Positions 1 through 3,953 of a stretch of DNA of 5,560 nucleotides are shown here, piece after piece. The notes under the pieces are model-generated. The model had not been told where the DNA came from, searched no databases, and saw only the letters and a list, made by a program, of their open reading frames with translations. Position numbers and translations under genes: made by a program. Every line of letters starts with the position of its first letter. Position 1 is the stretch's first letter. The DNA is from a virus (lineage: Duplodnaviria > Heunggongvirae > Uroviricota > Caudoviricetes). The stretch is taken from the IMG/VR virus record IMGVR_UViG_2734482785_000015; one strand, written 5' to 3'.

Positions 1-1242
1 ATGGCACGAAAAACCACTCCACTAACCATCACGGAGATCAAAAATGCACGACCAGGAGAAAAAGAATACACCCTGCAGGATGGCGGAGGATTGTTTCTTC
101 TGGTGAAGCCCTCCGGATCAAAAATCTGGCGCTTTACGTATTACCGACCCACTGACAAAAAACGAACCATCGTTAGTCTTGGTCCGCTGAATGATGTTTC
201 TCTGTCAGAAGCCAGAGAGCGACGAAACGAATACAGGGGACTTATAGCGAAGGGAGTTGACCCACAGGACCACGAACGCCGGAAACGTGAAGCAGAGAGC
301 CGGAAAAAGGGCAACACGTTCGAAAAAGTTGCCTCTGACTGGTACGAGATGAAAAAAGGCCAGAATCTCGCTTACAACACGATTAAGGATATCTGGCGAT
401 CCATGGAAAAATACGTATTCCCGTACATCGGAAAAACGCCAATAGATACCCTCACCGCTCGCCGCTTTGTTGAGATACTCACCCCCATTAAGGCGCGTGG
501 CAACCTGGAAACCCTGAAACGCGTTTTACAGCGCATCAATGAGGTGATGGATTTTGCTGCCAACAGTGGTCTGATTGACATCAACACCGCCGCGAACGTC
601 CGTAAGGCATTCCCTACCCCCACCAAAAAGCACATGCCAACCATCCGACCGGAACAGCTACCGCAGCTAATGCACGATTTATCGGTCGCCAGCATAGAAC
701 GGCAAACCAGATTGCTGATTGAGTGGCAGCTACTGACCGTAGCACGCCCCGCCGAAGCAGCCGCCACACGCTGGGAAGAAATAAACCTCGATGCCGAAAC
801 CTGGACGATTCCAGCCGGACGCATGAAGATGCGCCGTGACCATGTGATCCCCCTTTGTGGTCAGGCTATGGCTGTACTGGAAACCATGAAGCCAATCAGC
901 GCACACAGGGAACACGTTTTTCCCAGCCTTAAAAACCCGATGCTGCCAATGAGCAGCCAGACCGCTAACGCCGCATTGCGCCGGATGGGTTACGCTGGTG
1001 TGCTGGTGTCTCACGGATTACGCGCCATATTCAGCACAGCAGCGAACGAGGAAGGATTCGAACCGGACGTAATCGAGGCCGCGCTCGCACACGTGGACAC
1101 GAACGAGGTAAGGCGAGCATATAACCGAAGTAACTACCTGGAAAAACGTGTAGTACTTATGCGCTGGTGGGGTGAATTTGTGGAAACCGCAGCAACCGGA
1201 GTGACCATAGCCAGTGGTAAAAGGGGTATCCGTGCGGTGTGA
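1..1242 (+). CDS. int: Tyrosine-type site-specific integrase, P4-like family
   Basis: 413-aa ORF from ATG at 1 to TGA at 1240-1242. The N-terminus (MARKTTPLTITEIK...DGGGLFLLVKPSGSKIWRFTYY) is typical of the arm-binding region of P4-type integrases. C-terminal catalytic-type motifs are readable: ARPAE (Arg codon 745-747), HGLR (1012-1023), LAH, and Tyr374 (1120-1122) ten residues after the second His. Confidence 0.93.
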   Translation: MARKTTPLTITEIKNARPGEKEYTLQDGGGLFLLVKPSGSKIWRFTYYRPTDKKRTIVSLGPLNDVSLSEARERRNEYRGLIAKGVDPQDHERRKREAESRKKGNTFEKVASDWYEMKKGQNLAYNTIKDIWRSMEKYVFPYIGKTPIDTLTARRFVEILTPIKARGNLETLKRVLQRINEVMDFAANSGLIDINTAANVRKAFPTPTKKHMPTIRPEQLPQLMHDLSVASIERQTRLLIEWQLLTVARPAEAAATRWEEINLDAETWTIPAGRMKMRRDHVIPLCGQAMAVLETMKPISAHREHVFPSLKNPMLPMSSQTANAALRRMGYAGVLVSHGLRAIFSTAANEEGFEPDVIEAALAHVDTNEVRRAYNRSNYLEKRVVLMRWWGEFVETAATGVTIASGKRGIRAV

Positions 1243-1355
1243 CTGTACAAAAAACCAGTACAACCAGTGCAAACCATGCTAAACCATCGTATAATCGCCT
1301 ATCTCCTCAACAGACAAGGAAAAACCCGACTCATGAGAAATCGAGATTTATTGAA

Positions 1356-1598
1356 ATGGTCTGGCACGAAAAATCATCCAATGTCTGCGGTGAAGGGCTG
1401 CAACTGGCGTTAATGGCAAATCGTGAATTCTGGTCAACATACGATCCGGAAGACAAATCAACAGCCCCCACAAAACACGAGGTAGTCAGTTTTTTACGCT
1501 CGCGTGGCGCATCGAAAAATCTGGCTGAAAGCATCGACAAGGTGCTGAGGCCCACCAGCCTTAAATGTGGTGGGCGACCTAAGAAGTGGAAACGGTAA
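1356..1598 (+). CDS. Hypothetical small protein (80 aa from ATG 1356; frame is open from GTG 1239 giving 119 aa; alternative ATG at 1413)
   Basis: Open frame with reasonable enterobacterial codon choice (ctg, gcg, cgt, gaa, aaa), ending TAA 1596-1598 and followed 5 nt later by a strong intrinsic terminator. No strong Shine-Dalgarno at any candidate start, so the start is uncertain. No family recognised. Confidence 0.4.
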   Translation: MVWHEKSSNVCGEGLQLALMANREFWSTYDPEDKSTAPTKHEVVSFLRSRGASKNLAESIDKVLRPTSLKCGGRPKKWKR

Positions 1599-1603
1599 TC
1601 ACA

Positions 1604-1633
1604 ATAGCGGCCCCTTGCGGTCGCTATTTTTTT
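1604..1633 (+). terminator. Rho-independent terminator (plus strand)
   Basis: Stem ATAGCGGCC (1604-1612) pairs with GGTCGCTAT (1619-1627) with one G-T wobble, around a CCTTGC loop, followed by a T run (1627-1633). The minus-strand reading lacks a U tract, so it is unidirectional. Confidence 0.65.
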
Positions 1634-1660
1634 GCAAAAAGAAAGCGTAATCAATGAGAT

Positions 1661-1703
1661 AAAAAACAGTGAGTACCGTTTTAAAACGGTGAGTACTGTT
1701 TTT
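1661..1703. promoter_or_regulatory. AT-rich imperfect 44-bp palindrome with a perfect 16-bp core and embedded direct repeats, upstream of alpA
   Basis: Perfect palindrome ACCGTTTTAAAACGGT at 1675-1690. Outer arms AAAAAACAGT (1661-1670) and ACTGTTTTT (1695-1703) are complementary. Direct repeats GTGAGTACCGTTTT (1669-1682) and GTGAGTACTGTTTT (1689-1702) sit 20 bp apart. Could be an operator or a weak bidirectional terminator/attenuator; function not determinable from sequence. Confidence 0.5.
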
Positions 1704-1767
1704 CCCGCCCTGCCCTGTTTTACCGTATTTATCACCGGAATACGCCGGATTAACGAGGTAAAACACG

Positions 1768-1974
1768 ATGGAAGTAATCAGAAAAATTCTTACCCGTCAG
1801 GAAGTAAAAAATATTCTGCGCATCAAGGCAGACAGTTCGCTACAGGACATGATCAACGCCGGAAAATTCCCGAAAGGCTTCAAAATCGGTCTGCGTCGTG
1901 TTGGCTGGTATGAAGATGAAGTGCTGGCCTGGCTGAAAGAGCGCGAGGAAGAAGCGCGCGGAACGGCTGCGTAA
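1768..1974 (+). CDS. alpA: AlpA-family (P4 Vis-like, MerR-superfamily HTH) transcriptional regulator / excision activator
   Basis: 68-aa ORF with GAGG (1755-1758) 9 nt upstream of ATG 1768. The translation carries the AlpA-type pattern ILTRQEVKNILRIKADSSLQDMINAGKFPKGFKIGLRRVGWYEDEVLAWL. It lies just downstream of a P4-type integrase, as in P4-like cryptic prophages. Confidence 0.85.
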   Translation: MEVIRKILTRQEVKNILRIKADSSLQDMINAGKFPKGFKIGLRRVGWYEDEVLAWLKEREEEARGTAA

Positions 1975-2120
1975 TGGTGTGAGGCGTAACGCGATGAACA
2001 TAACAAAAAGCGCCCCGTTGCCGGAGCGCCCTTGCGAACAATTAACCTACTGCGCAAAAAATGAATCAGTGCAGTGGGATTATATCAACCGTGTAGCGAA
2101 GCGCCACAATTGCCGGATAA

Positions 2121-2153
2121 CAGGCAAAACAAAGGCCACCTGCTACGGTGGCC
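2121..2153 (-). terminator. Rho-independent terminator (minus strand)
   Basis: GC stem GGCCACC (2134-2140) / GGTGGCC (2147-2153) with a 6-nt loop. On the minus strand it is followed by UUUGUUUUG (complement of 2121-2133). No T run follows on the plus strand. Confidence 0.55.
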
Positions 2154-2256
2154 ATTCGACACAAGCTACACGTTATCCCCAACGCATGAGCATTGCCAAC
2201 AATGCCACATTTGCGGCTGGTGGGCAATGTGATCAGTGTGCTGGCTTGCTGGTGGG

Positions 2257-2451
2257 CTATTCCTGCTCTTTAACATCGTCATGCCGCGATGTTTTCCAGG
2301 TATGCGATCCCATTTTTGTGCGCCTGTACTCTTTTAAGAACTTCTCAAGGGCAAACGCACATGGCGCAAATCTTTCTGATTCATGCTCTATCTTTCTGCG
2401 CCGTCTTTTCCGTGCCGGTGATGGTGTATTGGTTGATTCTTTGTTGGTCAT
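2257..2451 (-). CDS. Questionable small basic ORF (64 aa, KRRRRK-containing) inside the transcribed 3' region of the regulator gene
   Basis: ATG-to-TAG ORF on the minus strand between the regulator stop (2509) and the minus-strand terminator. Weak or absent Shine-Dalgarno (AGG 8-9 nt upstream) and several rare codons (AGA, AGG, ATA, CGG) argue against it; position between a gene and its terminator argues mildly for it. Confidence 0.2.
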   Translation of the reverse strand: MTNKESTNTPSPARKRRRRKIEHESERFAPCAFALEKFLKEYRRTKMGSHTWKTSRHDDVKEQE

Positions 2452-2508
2452 TCTGTGTACCTGTAAAGCAATGCGCCGGAGTTCCTCACACCACGGCGAT
2501 GATAGTTA

Positions 2509-2814
2509 TTATTCTGATTCTTTGGCCTTGCGGCGCTGGAGTTCTTCACGTGCGACGGTGACGAGCTGCCCGATCTCCTCGGCAGCTTTGACTCCGATTT
2601 TTTCCACCTGCGCCAGCGCATCGAGCGAAGAAACCAGGGGATTTTCTCCGCTTCCTTCTGCCTGGCGGCGGGCGATCTCACCGCGCATGGCGGTTACTAT
2701 GAATCCGGCGTTGCTTTCACCGTCCAGTTTTACGGATTCCATGCCTTCAAAAGCATCATGTGGGATACGAATTGAAATCTGTTTTGATTTGTCGTTGATA
2801 GTGTTTTTTGCCAT
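2509..2814 (-). CDS. Putative ribbon-helix-helix (CopG/Arc/MetJ-like) DNA-binding regulator, candidate repressor of the divergent operon
   Basis: Minus-strand ORF. The best start is the ATG at 2812-2814 (101 aa, MAKNTINDKSKQISIRIP...), 6 nt downstream of AGGAGA (complement of 2821-2826). The track start at 2853 adds 13 residues without a ribosome-binding site. The N-terminus KQISIRIPHDAFEGMESVKL...SNAGFIVTAMRGEIARR fits an RHH beta-strand, helix, helix pattern. It diverges from an operator-bearing promoter region. Confidence 0.7.
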   Translation of the reverse strand: MAKNTINDKSKQISIRIPHDAFEGMESVKLDGESNAGFIVTAMRGEIARRQAEGSGENPLVSSLDALAQVEKIGVKAAEEIGQLVTVAREELQRRKAKESE

Positions 2815-2836
2815 GTGCATTCTCCTAAACAAAAGA

Positions 2837-2913
2837 TGTGATTCAGTATACACAAAAAAGAATCACAAAAAATACTTGACCTGTGATTCAGTTAAATTTA
2901 ATTTAAATCACAC
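2837..2913. promoter_or_regulatory. Divergent promoter region with two inverted-repeat operator units
   Basis: Unit 1: TGTGATTCA (2837-2845), 13-bp AT-rich spacer, AGAATCACA (2859-2867). Unit 2: TGTGATTCA (2882-2890), 14-bp spacer, AAATCACA (2905-2912). Plus-strand sigma70-like promoter: -35 TTGACC (2875-2880), 17-bp spacer, -10 TAATTT (2898-2903), overlapping unit 2. Minus-strand -10 TATACT (complement of 2845-2850) overlaps unit 1. Confidence 0.6.
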
Positions 2914-2937
2914 CTCAGTAAGAGGATGTAAACGACA

Positions 2938-2971
2938 ACGCCCCGAACTGTTTGCGGCAGTAGCGGGGCGT
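2938..2971 (+). other. Stable stem-loop in the 5' leader of the Icd-like operon (no U tract)
   Basis: ACGCCCCG (2938-2945) pairs with CGGGGCGT (2964-2971); an inner CTG/CAG pair sits within the loop. It lies between the predicted promoter and the ribosome-binding site of the first gene. It is not followed by a T run, so it is not a canonical intrinsic terminator. Confidence 0.4.
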
Positions 2972-3007
2972 CTAACCACCAACGATAGAAAGCGTATCGA
3001 GGTAGCT

Positions 3008-3214
3008 ATGAGAAATCATACCATACACCCGCAAGGGCGGGACTCGCACAACCTGAATAAATACATCTGGCGTTTTATCGCCCTGAGTACGGCACAACCG
3101 CGCGTGATTACCATCGTGGCCACCAGCGAACAGGAAGCGCGCCAGCAATCTCCTGATGGCTGCGTGATGGTATTCGCCGCCCGTATTCGCCAGGAGGTGC
3201 ACCATGTGCAATAA
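3008..3214 (+). CDS. Icd-like (Ash family) small protein; positional analogue of P4 kil
   Basis: 68-aa ORF with GAGG (2999-3002) 5 nt upstream of ATG 3008. The translation MRNHTIHPQGRDSHNLNKYIWRFIALSTAQPRVITIVATSEQEARQQSPDGCVMVFAARIRQEVHHVQ matches my recollection of the host-cell-division-inhibitor Icd-like proteins of P4-like prophages. It is the C-terminal in-frame part of the artefactual 1979-3214 track ORF. Confidence 0.8.
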   Translation: MRNHTIHPQGRDSHNLNKYIWRFIALSTAQPRVITIVATSEQEARQQSPDGCVMVFAARIRQEVHHVQ

Positions 3215-3440
3215 CACCCGTCCGGACGCAGCCGCCGAAGCTATCAAAACGCTAATGCACGCGCTGATTGATATTTCTGTTATCGCGGACATGGCACATA
3301 AGCACGCCACCAGTGAAACAGAATATGCCGGGGCTTTCGTTCCTCACTCACTGGCTGTTATGCAATTTAGTGCTGATATGGCGCTGAATGAGGCAGGCAA
3401 AATTCTTACCGCAGATATTCAAGGGGCGCACCATGCATGA
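3204..3440 (+). CDS. Hypothetical protein (78 aa)
   Basis: ATG 3204 is preceded by GGAGG (3194-3198) and overlaps the Icd-like stop by 11 nt, consistent with translational coupling. No family recognised. Confidence 0.6.
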   Translation: MCNNTRPDAAAEAIKTLMHALIDISVIADMAHKHATSETEYAGAFVPHSLAVMQFSADMALNEAGKILTADIQGAHHA

Positions 3441-3665: not shown

Positions 3666-3953
3666 ATGAAACAGAAAAATTCTGGCTTTACTGCCAGCGG
3701 CCCCGCTCGGTCTGAAATCCGCCCCGGCGATATTTTCAAAGATAACTACGGCGGCACGATAACGATAAAAGACGTGGAAGAACGGCGCATCACCTACCGT
3801 CGTGAAGGCTACGACTATGACTGCGTGATGCCTGTTTATCAGTTCCGGCGTGATTTTAAGCTGGTGGGCCATCGTAAAGCCGTAAATCAGAAACGTGCAG
3901 CAAGCTATATCCGCAAAATCCGTGAAATGCTGGTCGCAGGGGGTAAGAAATGA
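3666..3953 (+). CDS. Hypothetical protein (95 aa), tentatively DUF4222-like
   Basis: ATG 3666 lies 5 nt after the previous stop; the TGA stop at 3951-3953 overlaps the ATG of the downstream replication gene (ATGA). The motif ITYRREGYDYDCVMPVYQFRRDF resembles small proteins seen upstream of primases in enterobacterial P4-like islands; this is recollection only. Confidence 0.6.
   Translation: MKQKNSGFTASGPARSEIRPGDIFKDNYGGTITIKDVEERRITYRREGYDYDCVMPVYQFRRDFKLVGHRKAVNQKRAASYIRKIREMLVAGGKK

What the first reader, a model, noticed from the sequence alone, without database searches (positions are those of the whole stretch)
2121..2508. About 390-nt region transcribed on the minus strand past the regulator stop, ending at an intrinsic terminator, with no convincing gene
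The minus-strand terminator at 2121-2153 is oriented to stop transcripts coming from the regulator gene, yet lies about 390 nt beyond its stop codon. The interval holds only a dubious 64-aa highly basic ORF (2257-2451, KRRRRK motif, weak ribosome-binding site, rare codons). Options are a long 3' UTR, a small regulatory RNA, or a second small gene forming a two-gene regulator-plus-effector module; an RHH antitoxin followed by a small toxin is one such architecture. The large plus-strand track ORF across this region is an artefact.
Basis: partly seen in the sequence, partly recalled or inferred. Interest (0 to 1): 0.5.

Follow-up and report, generated by a model that had tools for sequence, protein, structure and literature searches.

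The report
Small conserved gene after satellite repressor
The "empty" 390 bases after a phage-satellite repressor gene hold a real, conserved 64-amino-acid gene of unknown function, two Chi sites and a terminator, all lying antisense inside a long open reading frame that resembles the one phage P4 translates to escape its own immunity.

Summary
The window is the left end of an E. coli phage-inducible chromosomal island: int, alpA, a minus-strand regulator, Icd-like, DUF4222, primase.

- **Terminator:** the minus-strand terminator (stem 2134-2153, T-tract 2124-2133) is real. It is functionally conserved in 86 of 89 related loci, with at least five different compensating stems.
- **The 64-aa ORF (2257-2451) is a gene, not a dubious ORF:**
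  - It is intact in 89 of 89 loci, with the ATG and the AGG of its ribosome-binding site kept.
  - Indels are in frame.
  - pN/pS is 0.40-0.43, the same as the regulator gene.
  - Replacements are conservative only in this frame.
  - It gives a full-length match to PHROG 21027.
- **Co-transcription:** a conserved hairpin between the two genes keeps G-U pairs that only work in minus-strand RNA.
- **3'UTR:** it is mosaic and shows no sign of a regulatory RNA. Its conserved core is two Chi sites.
- **Toxin-antitoxin reading:** not supported.
- **The plus-strand ORF is not an artefact:**
  - The frame is stop-free for 237-819 codons in every relative.
  - It is usually fused in frame to Icd-like.
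  - Its amino-acid sequence is unconstrained.
  - This fits an analogue of P4 eta.

The function of the small protein remains unknown.

The parts
2509..2814 (-). Regulator gene (101 aa, YlcI/YnfO family, ribbon-helix-helix-like N-terminus), first gene of the minus-strand unit
   Evidence: NCBIfam NF041551, 65.3 bits against a cut-off of 30. pN/pS is 0.44 in its frame. Homologues in 8 other genera are 48-74% identical. The RHH fold itself is inferred: the Pfam PSK_trans_fac match is weak (E=0.015) and the AlphaFold2 model is poor.
2474..2498 (-). Conserved stem-loop in the 57-nt spacer between the regulator stop and the small-ORF start
   Evidence: Present in 22 of 22 distinct spacers. Several pairs are G-U, which pair only in the minus-strand RNA. 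There is one double compensatory change, CG->UA. The window copy folds as 5+3 pairs. It is not followed by a U-tract, so it is not a terminator.
2460..2463 (-). Ribosome-binding site core (CAGG) of the small ORF, 8 nt before the ATG
   Evidence: AGG is invariant in 22 of 22 distinct upstream sequences. Some relatives have AGGA or AGGAGG.
2257..2451 (-). Small protein gene, 64 aa, basic (pI 10.1), member of PHROG 21027; conserved core ERFAPCAFxLExFLKEYRRTKMGxHTWK
   Evidence: RefSeq annotates relatives as 'hypothetical protein'.
2154..2256 (-). 3' untranslated region of the unit; mosaic between relatives
   Evidence: No coding signature in any frame. Unremarkable fold, z=-0.99. Several alternative sequences and lengths occur: the terminator lies 64-147 nt after the stop in nearly all loci.
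2216..2223 (+). Chi site GCTGGTGG (first of two in the 3'UTR)
   Evidence: 87 of 89 relatives keep 1-2 Chi sites here.
2248..2255 (+). Chi site GCTGGTGG (second)
2124..2153 (-). Intrinsic terminator of the minus-strand unit (stem 2134-2153, T-tract 2124-2133). On the plus strand it has no T-tract after it.
   Evidence: 86 of 89 relatives have a hairpin plus T-tract at this place, with at least 5 different compensating stems: GGCCACC/GGTGGCC, GGCGACCG/CGGTCGCC, GGCGGCTCC/GGGGCCGC and others.
1979..3214 (+). Long open frame (411 codons; GTG 1979, ATG 1994 preceded by GAGG). It starts 5-20 nt after the alpA stop, runs antisense through the whole minus-strand unit and is fused in frame to the Icd-like gene (3008-3214). 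Read as an analogue of P4 eta/kil.
   Evidence: openness. (no amino-acid constraint outside Icd-like). (Icd-like domain at residues 362-405). PMC10111431 for P4 eta.
2837..2917 (.). Two inverted repeats in the divergent promoter region (TGTGATTC/GAATCACA 2837-2844/2860-2867; 2877-2888/2906-2917), candidate operators of the regulator; -35-like TTGACC at 2875-2880
   Evidence: Binding is inferred, not shown.

Best explanation
Positions 2121-2508 are the distal half of a two-gene minus-strand unit of a phage-inducible chromosomal island.

The unit, in order of transcription:
1. A promoter in the divergent region around 2815-2900.
2. The YlcI/YnfO-type regulator.
3. A 57-nt spacer with a conserved stem-loop.
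4. A genuine 64-aa basic, helical protein (PHROG 21027).
5. About 100 nt of 3'UTR carrying two Chi sites.
6. A one-way intrinsic terminator.

The whole unit lies antisense inside a 411-codon plus-strand frame that links alpA to the Icd-like and replication genes.

Likely working:
- In the quiescent island, the regulator represses the Icd-like/primase promoter at the TGTGATTC operators. The small protein is made with it.
- On induction, AlpA-driven transcription reads leftward-to-rightward across the unit. The two minus-strand terminators do not stop it.
- That transcript is kept translated by the long frame. It therefore escapes premature termination and enters Icd-like in frame, as P4 eta does for kil.

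What is shown: gene status of the ORF, conservation of the terminator, hairpin and Chi sites, openness of the plus frame without sequence constraint.

What is inferred: co-transcription, repression at the operators, the read-through mechanism, and the role of the small protein. My guess for that role is a nucleic-acid-binding accessory of the maintenance circuit. That part carries low confidence.
For: **Gene status of the ORF**
- Intact in 89 of 89 related loci, 39 distinct coding sequences.
- Indels in the N-terminal part are 3 and 6 nt.
- pN/pS is 0.40-0.43 in its frame, against 0.44 for the regulator gene and 0.8-1.25 for the other frames apart from the plus-strand long-ORF frame (0.47-0.52).
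- Mean BLOSUM62 of replacements is -0.10 in this frame. It is -1.09 in the overlapping plus frame, close to the noncoding baseline of about -1.06 to -1.34.
- The regulator control gives -0.65 against -1.22.
- PHROG 21027 matches full length, E=5e-29.
- 68 protein clusters were found, all Escherichia or Shigella.
- Divergent members keep F.LE.FLK...RTK.G..TWK.
- It is the most conserved stretch of the region, 85-92% identity.

**Unit structure**
- The spacer is 57 nt in 77 loci.
- The hairpin is kept in 22 of 22 distinct spacers, with G-U pairs specific to the minus strand.
- The terminator is kept in 86 of 89 loci with compensating stems.

**Plus-strand frame**
- 0 stops in 75 distinct spans of 237-752 codons. 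The other two frames carry 5.2 and 6.5 stops per 100 codons.
- In 2000 shuffles of the window span the longest open run was 209 codons, against 357 observed.
- 68 of 89 loci are fused in frame to Icd-like.
- 15 of the 20 distinct spacer lengths between the regulator ATG and the Icd ATG are 1 mod 3.
- pN/pS is 0.83-1.05 where the frame is not overlapped. The plus-strand controls give 0.46 for Icd-like and 0.57 for alpA.
- 330-381-codon frames occur in 6 of 8 other genera. In four of them the start overlaps the stop of the upstream gene.

**Literature**
- AlpA activates its own promoter and a reporter fused to the downstream ORF3. No repressor is known for Gram-negative islands (PMC6092414).
Against: - There is no expression data of any kind: no RNA-seq, ribosome profiling or proteomics.
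- The ribosome-binding site is weak in this window.
- The plus frame shares wobble positions with the small ORF, so pN/pS alone (0.43 against 0.47) does not separate the strands. Separation rests on the BLOSUM test and on the lack of constraint on the plus frame elsewhere.
- The C-terminal tail exists in two unrelated versions.
- The family is tiny: 13 representatives among 1.84 billion proteins.
- The AlphaFold2 model is weak (pLDDT 63). It shows only a kinked helix with no informative fold match.
- No promoter for the minus unit passed the consensus scan.
- P4 Eta/Kil showed no sequence similarity to this frame, so the eta comparison is by analogy only.
Confidence: 0.78

Rival explanations
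1. Toxin-antitoxin pair: the ribbon-helix-helix protein is an antitoxin and the 64-aa protein is its toxin. The pair would stabilise the island or abort phage infection.
For: The gene order is regulator first, small partner second, in one apparent unit. RHH antitoxins are common (general knowledge). The Pfam match of the regulator to an Rv0623-like family is weak (E=0.015).
Against: - No toxin, Pfam, NCBIfam or PADLOC family matches the ORF.
- The same small protein follows a 101-aa regulator, a 57-59-aa form with no room for a toxin-binding tail, and an unrelated Arc-like 57-aa protein.
- One relative sits on an IncFII plasmid without such a neighbour.
- Regulator homologues in eight other genera have no partner.
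- The 57-nt spacer with a hairpin is unlike the tight coupling usual for such pairs.
Confidence: 0.06
2. The ORF is not translated. The interval is a long 3'UTR or antisense RNA whose job is to pair with, or collide with, the plus-strand read-through transcript. Its conservation would come from RNA- or DNA-level constraints.
For: The whole minus transcript is complementary to the plus-strand frame. The ribosome-binding site is weak here. The plus frame is open and shares wobble positions. Chi sites show that DNA-level constraint exists in the interval.
Against: - Variation is concentrated at third positions.
- Replacements are conservative only in the minus frame.
- Start codon, AGG and reading frame are kept in 89 of 89 loci.
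- Motif conservation at protein level holds in relatives with diverged DNA.
- There is no structural signal in the RNA.

An antisense effect in addition to coding is not excluded.
Confidence: 0.08
3. The plus-strand 411-codon ORF is the real protein-coding gene here (a 'Bro-network' or extended Icd-like protein). The minus-strand small ORF would be a by-product of its sequence.
For: The frame is open in all relatives. Gene callers and RefSeq's annotation pipeline (PGAP) repeatedly call it, or fragments of it. pN/pS is 0.47 over the small-ORF segment.
Against: - Outside the two minus-strand genes its pN/pS is 0.83-1.05.
- Its replacements score like noncoding DNA.
- No Pfam domain is found apart from the C-terminal Icd-like part.
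- The dip in pN/pS occurs exactly, and only, where minus-strand genes lie.
Confidence: 0.05

Closest known systems
Bacteriophage P4 eta/kil nested genes with CI RNA immunity (Forti et al. 1999, as summarised in PMC10111431)
   Same: A long ORF starts next to the alpA homologue, contains the immunity determinant and an internal promoter, and is in frame with a small downstream ORF. Its translation, rather than its product, is the apparent point. Relatives of this island carry the CI/seqA equivalents (Rfam C4 and isrK) at the same place.
   Different: In this window the immunity determinant inside the frame is an antisense two-gene protein unit, not an RNA. The frame is 237-819 codons, against 197 in P4 as I recall it. 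No sequence similarity to P4 was detected. Prevention of termination is untested.
P1/P7 immI region (c4 antisense RNA, icd, ant)
   Same: An Icd-family small ORF acts as a leader whose translation gates expression of downstream genes (established knowledge, recalled). The Icd-like domain is present here.
   Different: No C4 RNA is present in this window. The downstream genes are replication genes, not an antirepressor.
Type II toxin-antitoxin modules with RHH antitoxins
   Same: A small RHH-like regulator is followed by a small ORF on the same strand.
   Different: There is no toxin homology, the partner is interchangeable, the spacer is 57 nt, and each gene occurs without the other.
PHROG 21027 / RefSeq 'hypothetical protein' WP_071779903.1-like family
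   Same: Full-length profile match, with the same length and context in annotated genomes.
   Different: Nothing differs; this is the family. It has no assigned function.
Face-to-face (convergent) promoter switches such as coliphage 186 pR/pL
   Same: Two transcription units overlap in opposite directions across a developmental switch region (recalled knowledge).
   Different: Here the overlap is about 0.7 kb and contains two protein genes on one strand and a translated, sequence-free frame on the other. Interference has not been measured.

Membership tests
PHROG 21027 (small prophage/satellite protein of unknown function) | Full-length match to the family profile | tested here: met
   E=5.1e-29, residues 1-64 on profile positions 1-65 of 65.
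PHROG 21027 (small prophage/satellite protein of unknown function) | Evolution as a protein: intact frame, purifying selection, conservative replacements | tested here: met
   Intact in 89 of 89 loci. pN/pS 0.40-0.43. BLOSUM -0.10 against about -1.1.
Type II toxin-antitoxin module | Second gene belongs to a known toxin family | tested here: not met
   No match in Pfam, NCBIfam, PADLOC or PDB. The model is a single kinked helix.
Type II toxin-antitoxin module | The two genes form an obligate, co-varying pair | tested here: not met
   Three different upstream regulators occur with a near-identical small ORF. The regulator occurs without the partner in 8 genera. A plasmid copy has no such neighbour.
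Type II toxin-antitoxin module | Toxicity neutralised by the antitoxin | not testable with these tools
   Needs expression experiments.
3'UTR-derived or Hfq-binding small RNA (isrD-like) | Rfam match above the gathering score | tested here: not met
   isrD scores 22.4 bits against 37, E=0.43, and covers only the terminator hairpin.
3'UTR-derived or Hfq-binding small RNA (isrD-like) | Conserved sequence and structure upstream of the terminator | tested here: not met
   The 3'UTR is mosaic. Fold z=-0.99. The conserved core is two Chi sites.
Intrinsic (Rho-independent) terminator | G+C-rich hairpin followed by a U-tract on the transcribed strand | tested here: met
   7 pairs, 6 of them G-C, tail TTTGTTTTGC.
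Intrinsic (Rho-independent) terminator | Function conserved through compensating stem changes | tested here: met
   86 of 89 loci, at least 5 stem versions.
P4 eta/kil-type translated read-through ORF (plus strand) | Long ORF in frame with a small downstream ORF | tested here: met
   Fused to Icd-like in 68 of 89 loci; it ends less than 30 nt before Icd-like in 15 more.
P4 eta/kil-type translated read-through ORF (plus strand) | Start adjacent to the stop of the alpA homologue | tested here: met
   In the window, GTG lies 5 nt and ATG 20 nt after the alpA stop, with GAGG before the ATG. In 47 loci the first start codon lies within 60 nt of the alpA stop.
P4 eta/kil-type translated read-through ORF (plus strand) | Selection on openness, not on amino-acid sequence | tested here: met
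   0 stops against 5-6.5 per 100 codons in the other frames. pN/pS 0.83-1.05.
P4 eta/kil-type translated read-through ORF (plus strand) | Sequence homology to P4 Eta/Kil | tested here: not met
   tblastn of the Icd-like part against 50,697 phage records found one satellite-like record and no P4.
P4 eta/kil-type translated read-through ORF (plus strand) | Translation prevents premature (Rho-dependent) termination | not testable with these tools
   Needs reporter fusions with in-frame stops, with and without a Rho inhibitor.
YlcI/YnfO family (the upstream regulator) | NCBIfam NF041551 above its cut-off | tested here: met
   65.3 bits against a cut-off of 30.

The most novel reading that the evidence does not exclude
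The regulator and small-protein unit, together with a neighbouring unannotated antisense small RNA, form the immunity arm of a convergent, translation-gated switch. In this reading, AlpA-driven transcription can cross the antisense unit only while ribosomes translate a 411-codon frame of arbitrary sequence into Icd-like. The 64-aa protein would be a new kind of factor that acts on this crossing. It might help sense and antisense RNAs pair, or it might hold back AlpA. That would supply the missing negative control of Gram-negative phage-inducible islands.
Probability: 0.2. Interest if true: 0.7.

Novelty: new variant of a known kind. Interest (0 to 1): 0.42.

Why it matters
- **A possible missing repressor.** Gram-negative phage-inducible islands are said to have an activator (AlpA) but no known repressor (PMC6092414). 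This locus shows a conserved candidate repressor unit with an uncharacterised partner protein. It sits exactly where AlpA-driven transcription must pass.
- **A translated spacer through two real genes.** The plus-strand frame is kept open for hundreds of codons with no constraint on what it encodes. This extends the P4 eta principle to an arrangement where the translated spacer runs antisense through two real genes. It therefore constrains the synonymous codon choice of those genes.
- **A correction for annotation.** RefSeq's annotation pipeline (PGAP) often marks this stretch as an 'Icd-like', 'BRO-N' or 'ash' pseudogene and frequently misses the small gene.

Tried and rejected
- **Rfam** on the window at E<=1: only a sub-threshold isrD hit on the terminator.
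- **Pfam, NCBIfam, PADLOC and PDB** sequence searches for the small ORF: nothing.
- **Profile search** of 1.84 billion representatives: 13 hits, no annotated relative.
- **Pfam** on divergent members: nothing above threshold.
- **AlphaFold2** with a 32-sequence alignment: pLDDT 63, two helices.
- **hhalign** of the family against AlpA and against the regulator: no relation.
- **AlphaFold2** of the regulator alone: too poor to confirm the RHH fold. PDB sequence search: nothing.
- **RNA folds** of the 3'UTR and of the spacer in the window alone are not better than shuffles. Only the comparative analysis showed the spacer hairpin.
- **pN/pS alone** could not separate the small ORF from the overlapping plus frame. 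I added the per-segment and BLOSUM tests for this.
- **tblastn** of the small ORF against the phage collection: no match.
- **Forti et al. 1999** (PMC94026) is not held, so P4 details come from PMC10111431 and from memory.
- **Literature search** for a ribbon-helix-helix regulator in these islands found nothing.

Full report
**Context.** The window is the left end of a phage-inducible chromosomal island (PICI) of Escherichia coli.
- Plus strand: integrase 1-1242, a 119-aa ORF 1239-1598, alpA 1768-1974 (Pfam Phage_AlpA).
- Minus strand: the 64-aa ORF 2257-2451 and a 101-aa YlcI/YnfO-family regulator 2509-2814 (NCBIfam NF041551, 65.3 bits).
- Plus strand again: Icd-like 3008-3214 (NF033153), two small ORFs, DUF4222 3666-3953 and a primase from 3950.
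- Annotated relatives sit next to tRNA-Pro/yejM, roxA or tqsA and have the same order.
- The stretch 2100-2520 matches 1900 of 5426 complete E. coli genomes.

**The observation.**
- The terminator is there: stem 2153->2134 on the minus strand, 7 pairs of which 6 are G-C, tail TTTGTTTTGC.
- It is 388 nt beyond the regulator stop. A second minus-strand terminator lies at 2033->2006.
- In 86 of 89 related loci a hairpin plus T-tract lies downstream of the small ORF, 64-147 nt after the stop in nearly all of them.
- At least five different stems occur that compensate each other: GGCCACC/GGTGGCC, GGCGACCG/CGGTCGCC, GGCGGCTCC/GGGGCCGC and others.
- The three exceptions are a contig end, a locus where the held sequence ends after what looks like a transposase ORF, and one divergent locus.
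- Neither hairpin has a T-tract on the plus strand, so both should stop only minus-strand transcripts.

**The 64-aa ORF is a gene.**
- RefSeq already annotates it as 'hypothetical protein' in some genomes. In others it is missed.
- It matches PHROG 21027 over its full length (E=5e-29).
- It has 68 relatives at 90% clustering, all from Escherichia or Shigella, 41-100 aa, none with a Pfam domain.
- I collected 8 genome loci and 80 IMG/VR loci. The frame is intact in all 89, counting the window, with 39 distinct coding sequences.
- Indels in the N-terminal part are 3 and 6 nt.
- Variable columns are 24, 29 and 45 of 56 at codon positions 1, 2 and 3.
- pN/pS over the first 45 codons is 0.40-0.43. 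The regulator gene gives 0.44, and the other frames give 0.8-1.25 apart from the plus-strand frame discussed next.

One other frame also scores low (0.47-0.52): the long plus-strand frame, which shares its wobble positions with both minus-strand genes. Two further tests separate them.
- The plus frame shows no constraint wherever it is not overlapped. pN/pS is 0.87, 0.83, 0.80, 0.90 and 1.05 in five segments. Real plus-strand genes give 0.46 (Icd-like) and 0.57 (alpA) by the same method.
- Amino-acid replacements are conservative only in the minus frames. Mean BLOSUM62 is -0.10 for the small ORF and -0.65 for the regulator. The plus frame over the same DNA gives -1.09 and -1.22, close to the noncoding baseline of about -1.06 to -1.34.

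Other features of the protein:
- The conserved core is ERFAPCAFxLExFLKEYRRTKMGxHTWK, preceded by a basic arm (RKRRRRK).
- Divergent members keep F.LE.FLK...RTK.G..TWK. So the tail of the window's version is the older one and is under protein-level constraint too.
- A second, shorter tail (…RKKLSLQTWERTESD) arose by out-of-frame indels of 26 and 19 nt.
- The protein is basic (pI 10.1) and predicted as two helices, 12-27 and 29-46, at modest confidence (pLDDT 63).
- No fold or family match was found.

**It is made together with the regulator.**
- The spacer between the regulator stop and the ATG is 57 nt in 77 loci.
- The spacer holds a stem-loop (window 2474-2498) that is kept in all 22 distinct spacer sequences.
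- Most variation in that stem turns G-C or A-U pairs into G-U pairs. On the plus-strand RNA these would be A-C mismatches. One pair changes on both sides, CG to UA.
- The structure is therefore selected in the minus-strand RNA. This is indirect evidence that transcription continues from the regulator into the small ORF.
- The AGG of the ribosome-binding site is invariant. The window has the weak form CAGG.
- The hairpin has no U-tract, so I read it as a processing or stabilising element. That reading is inferred.

**The remaining ~100 nt.**
- The 3'UTR (2154-2256) has no coding signature and an unremarkable fold (z=-0.99). It is replaced by other sequences in other lineages.
- Its conserved core, the repeated CCCACCAGC, is the complement of Chi. 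GCTGGTGG lies at 2216-2223 and 2248-2255 on the plus strand.
- 87 of 89 relatives keep one or two copies there.
- The only Rfam match in the window (isrD, 22.4 bits against 37) is the terminator hairpin. I see no support for a regulatory RNA inside the interval.

**Toxin-antitoxin reading.** Nothing supports it.
- No toxin or defence family matches.
- The same small protein follows three different upstream proteins: the 101-aa regulator (45 loci), a 57-61-aa form of it with no C-terminal extension (34 loci), and in the O157:H7 locus L003 an unrelated Arc-like 57-aa protein. Nine other loci also lack a match to the window's regulator.
- A relative lies on an IncFII plasmid with no such neighbour.
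- The regulator's homologues in Enterobacter, Photorhabdus, Yersinia, Pantoea, Scandinavium, Lelliottia, Xenorhabdus and Pseudomonas have no small ORF. In most of them a terminator-like hairpin with a T-run follows the regulator, directly or within about 300 nt.
- The small gene is therefore an addition of the Escherichia lineage, inserted between the regulator and its terminator.

**The plus-strand ORF is not an artefact.**
- The 411-codon frame 1979-3214 begins 5 nt (GTG) or 20 nt (ATG 1994, preceded by GAGG) after the alpA stop. It ends at the Icd-like stop.
- In all 89 loci a stop-free plus-strand frame of 237-819 codons covers the small ORF.
- In 75 distinct spans it has no stop, while the other two frames have 5.2 and 6.5 stops per 100 codons.
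- In 2000 shuffles of the window span the longest open run was 209 codons, against 357 observed.
- In 68 loci it is fused in frame to Icd-like. In 15 more it ends within 30 nt of the Icd-like start.
- The 'intergenic' spacer between the regulator ATG and the Icd-like ATG takes 20 different lengths. Of these, 15 (60 loci) are 1 mod 3.
- Frames of 330-381 codons are present in six of the eight other genera. In four of these the ATG overlaps the stop of the upstream BRO or KilAC gene.
- One locus with a tandem duplication of the regulator-hairpin-small-ORF module keeps 799 codons open.
- Yet the encoded sequence is free to vary, and only the C-terminal Icd-like part matches a family.

**Comparison with P4.** Selection for openness without selection on sequence is what is described for P4 eta. 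That ORF is translationally coupled to the alpA homologue, contains the immunity RNA and an internal promoter, and is in frame with the small kil. Its translation prevents termination of transcripts from the upstream late promoter (PMC10111431, citing Forti et al. 1999, which I could not read).
- Relatives of this island carry the P4/P1-type immunity RNAs (Rfam C4 at 76-81 bits, isrK at 62-80 bits) just upstream of Icd-like inside the same frame. The window has none.
- AlpA activates its own promoter and a reporter fused to the downstream ORF3, and no repressor is known for these islands (PMC6092414).
- I therefore read the plus frame as an eta-like translated read-through frame. The minus-strand unit is a protein-based immunity or maintenance determinant embedded in it.
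- No sequence similarity to P4 was detectable, so this is an analogy of mechanism, not shown homology.
- Keeping the plus frame open also constrains the minus-strand genes. Tyr codons may not follow a codon ending in T or C, and His or Gln codons may not follow a codon ending in T (derived from the phase relation; the window obeys it).

**How it most likely works.** The window shows two inverted repeats, TGTGATTC/GAATCACA (2837-2867) and 2877-2917, that straddle a TTGACC -35-like box. The rest is inferred.
- The regulator probably represses the Icd-like/primase promoter there and controls its own unit, which also yields the small protein.
- On helper-phage induction, AlpA-driven transcripts cross the unit, kept translated by the long frame.
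- The role of the 64-aa protein is unknown. A basic arm followed by helices, and co-expression with the repressor, suggest a nucleic-acid-binding accessory of the maintenance circuit. Confidence in that specific role is low.

**Novelty and verdict.**
- The interval itself is ordinary: a small conserved hypothetical gene, already catalogued, plus a 3'UTR and a terminator.
- What is unusual is the arrangement. Two real genes lie antisense inside a long, sequence-free but stop-free translated frame.
- Two features were seen in passing: strong Chi enrichment and a likely antisense small RNA at the start of that frame.
- I rate it a new variant of a known kind, of moderate interest.

Noticed in passing
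window 1163, 2216, 2248, 3860, 4954 (+) and 1552, 3120, 5485 (-): There are eight Chi sites (GCTGGTGG) in 5560 bases. Shuffles give a mean of 0.23 and a maximum of 2. That is about one per 700 bases. Related loci hold 506 Chi sites in 496 kb, on both strands (288 against 218). This may protect replicating or linear island DNA from RecBCD.
   Followed up: partly
window ~1999-2087, minus strand: Candidate unannotated small RNA.
- It has an extended -10 box: TG at 2087-2086 and TATAAT at 2084-2079.
- About 75 nt downstream there is a strong terminator with a GCAA loop (2033-2006). Fold z-score is -2.7.
- The module is in 51 of 89 related loci, in two subtypes with the same spacing, and in 443 E. 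coli genomes. It is never annotated as RNA.
- It would be antisense to the first ~25 codons of the long plus-strand frame. In 32 of 51 loci the first ATG of that frame lies 16-34 nt from the hairpin.
   Followed up: partly
window 1979-3214 (+): RefSeq's annotation pipeline (PGAP) annotates pieces of this open frame in relatives as 'Icd-like', 'BRO-N' or 'ash family' pseudogenes. Pfam Phage_ASH matches, in a relative (L097), the part of this frame just upstream of the Icd-like domain, in the stretch of DNA where the isrK and C4 RNA matches lie. These calls appear to describe a translated spacer or RNA genes rather than decayed proteins.
   Followed up: partly
L005 3403-3588; L097 2289-2477: Related islands carry Rfam isrK and C4 antisense RNA (P1/P4-type immunity) directly upstream of Icd-like, together with a short form of the regulator. 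The window lacks them. The immunity region is therefore mosaic between protein-based and RNA-based versions.
   Followed up: partly
L098 2800-4125: There is a tandem duplication of the module 'regulator, spacer hairpin, small ORF'. The first regulator copy is decayed and its small-ORF paralogue (81 aa, P0070) is intact. The antisense frame stays open for 799 codons across both copies.
   Followed up: partly
L003 3187-3360 (E. coli O157:H7): In the O157:H7 island the small ORF is preceded by an unrelated Arc-like 57-aa protein instead of the YlcI/YnfO regulator. PGAP annotates neither gene there.
   Followed up: partly
L099/L100 3001-3192: A divergent member of the small-protein family (P0075, 63 aa) lies on an IncFII plasmid next to a sulfatase-family gene, outside any island and without a regulator neighbour.
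   Followed up: no
window 1669-1702 (+): Direct repeats GTGAGTAC(C/T)GTTTT lie at 1669-1682 and 1689-1702. They sit upstream of alpA and just after the plus-strand terminator at 1603-1628. They are possible AlpA binding sites in its own promoter.
   Followed up: no
window 2938-2971: A perfect 8-bp inverted repeat ACGCCCCG/CGGGGCGT lies in the leader of the Icd-like gene. On the minus strand it is followed by a T-rich run. Its purpose is unknown.
   Followed up: no
window 2485-2512 (+): This is the only sigma-70-like match in 1200-3300 (CTCACA, 16 nt, TATTAT). It lies on the plus strand inside the spacer between the two minus-strand genes and points into the antisense of the regulator. It could be an internal promoter of the long frame, or a chance match.
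   Followed up: no
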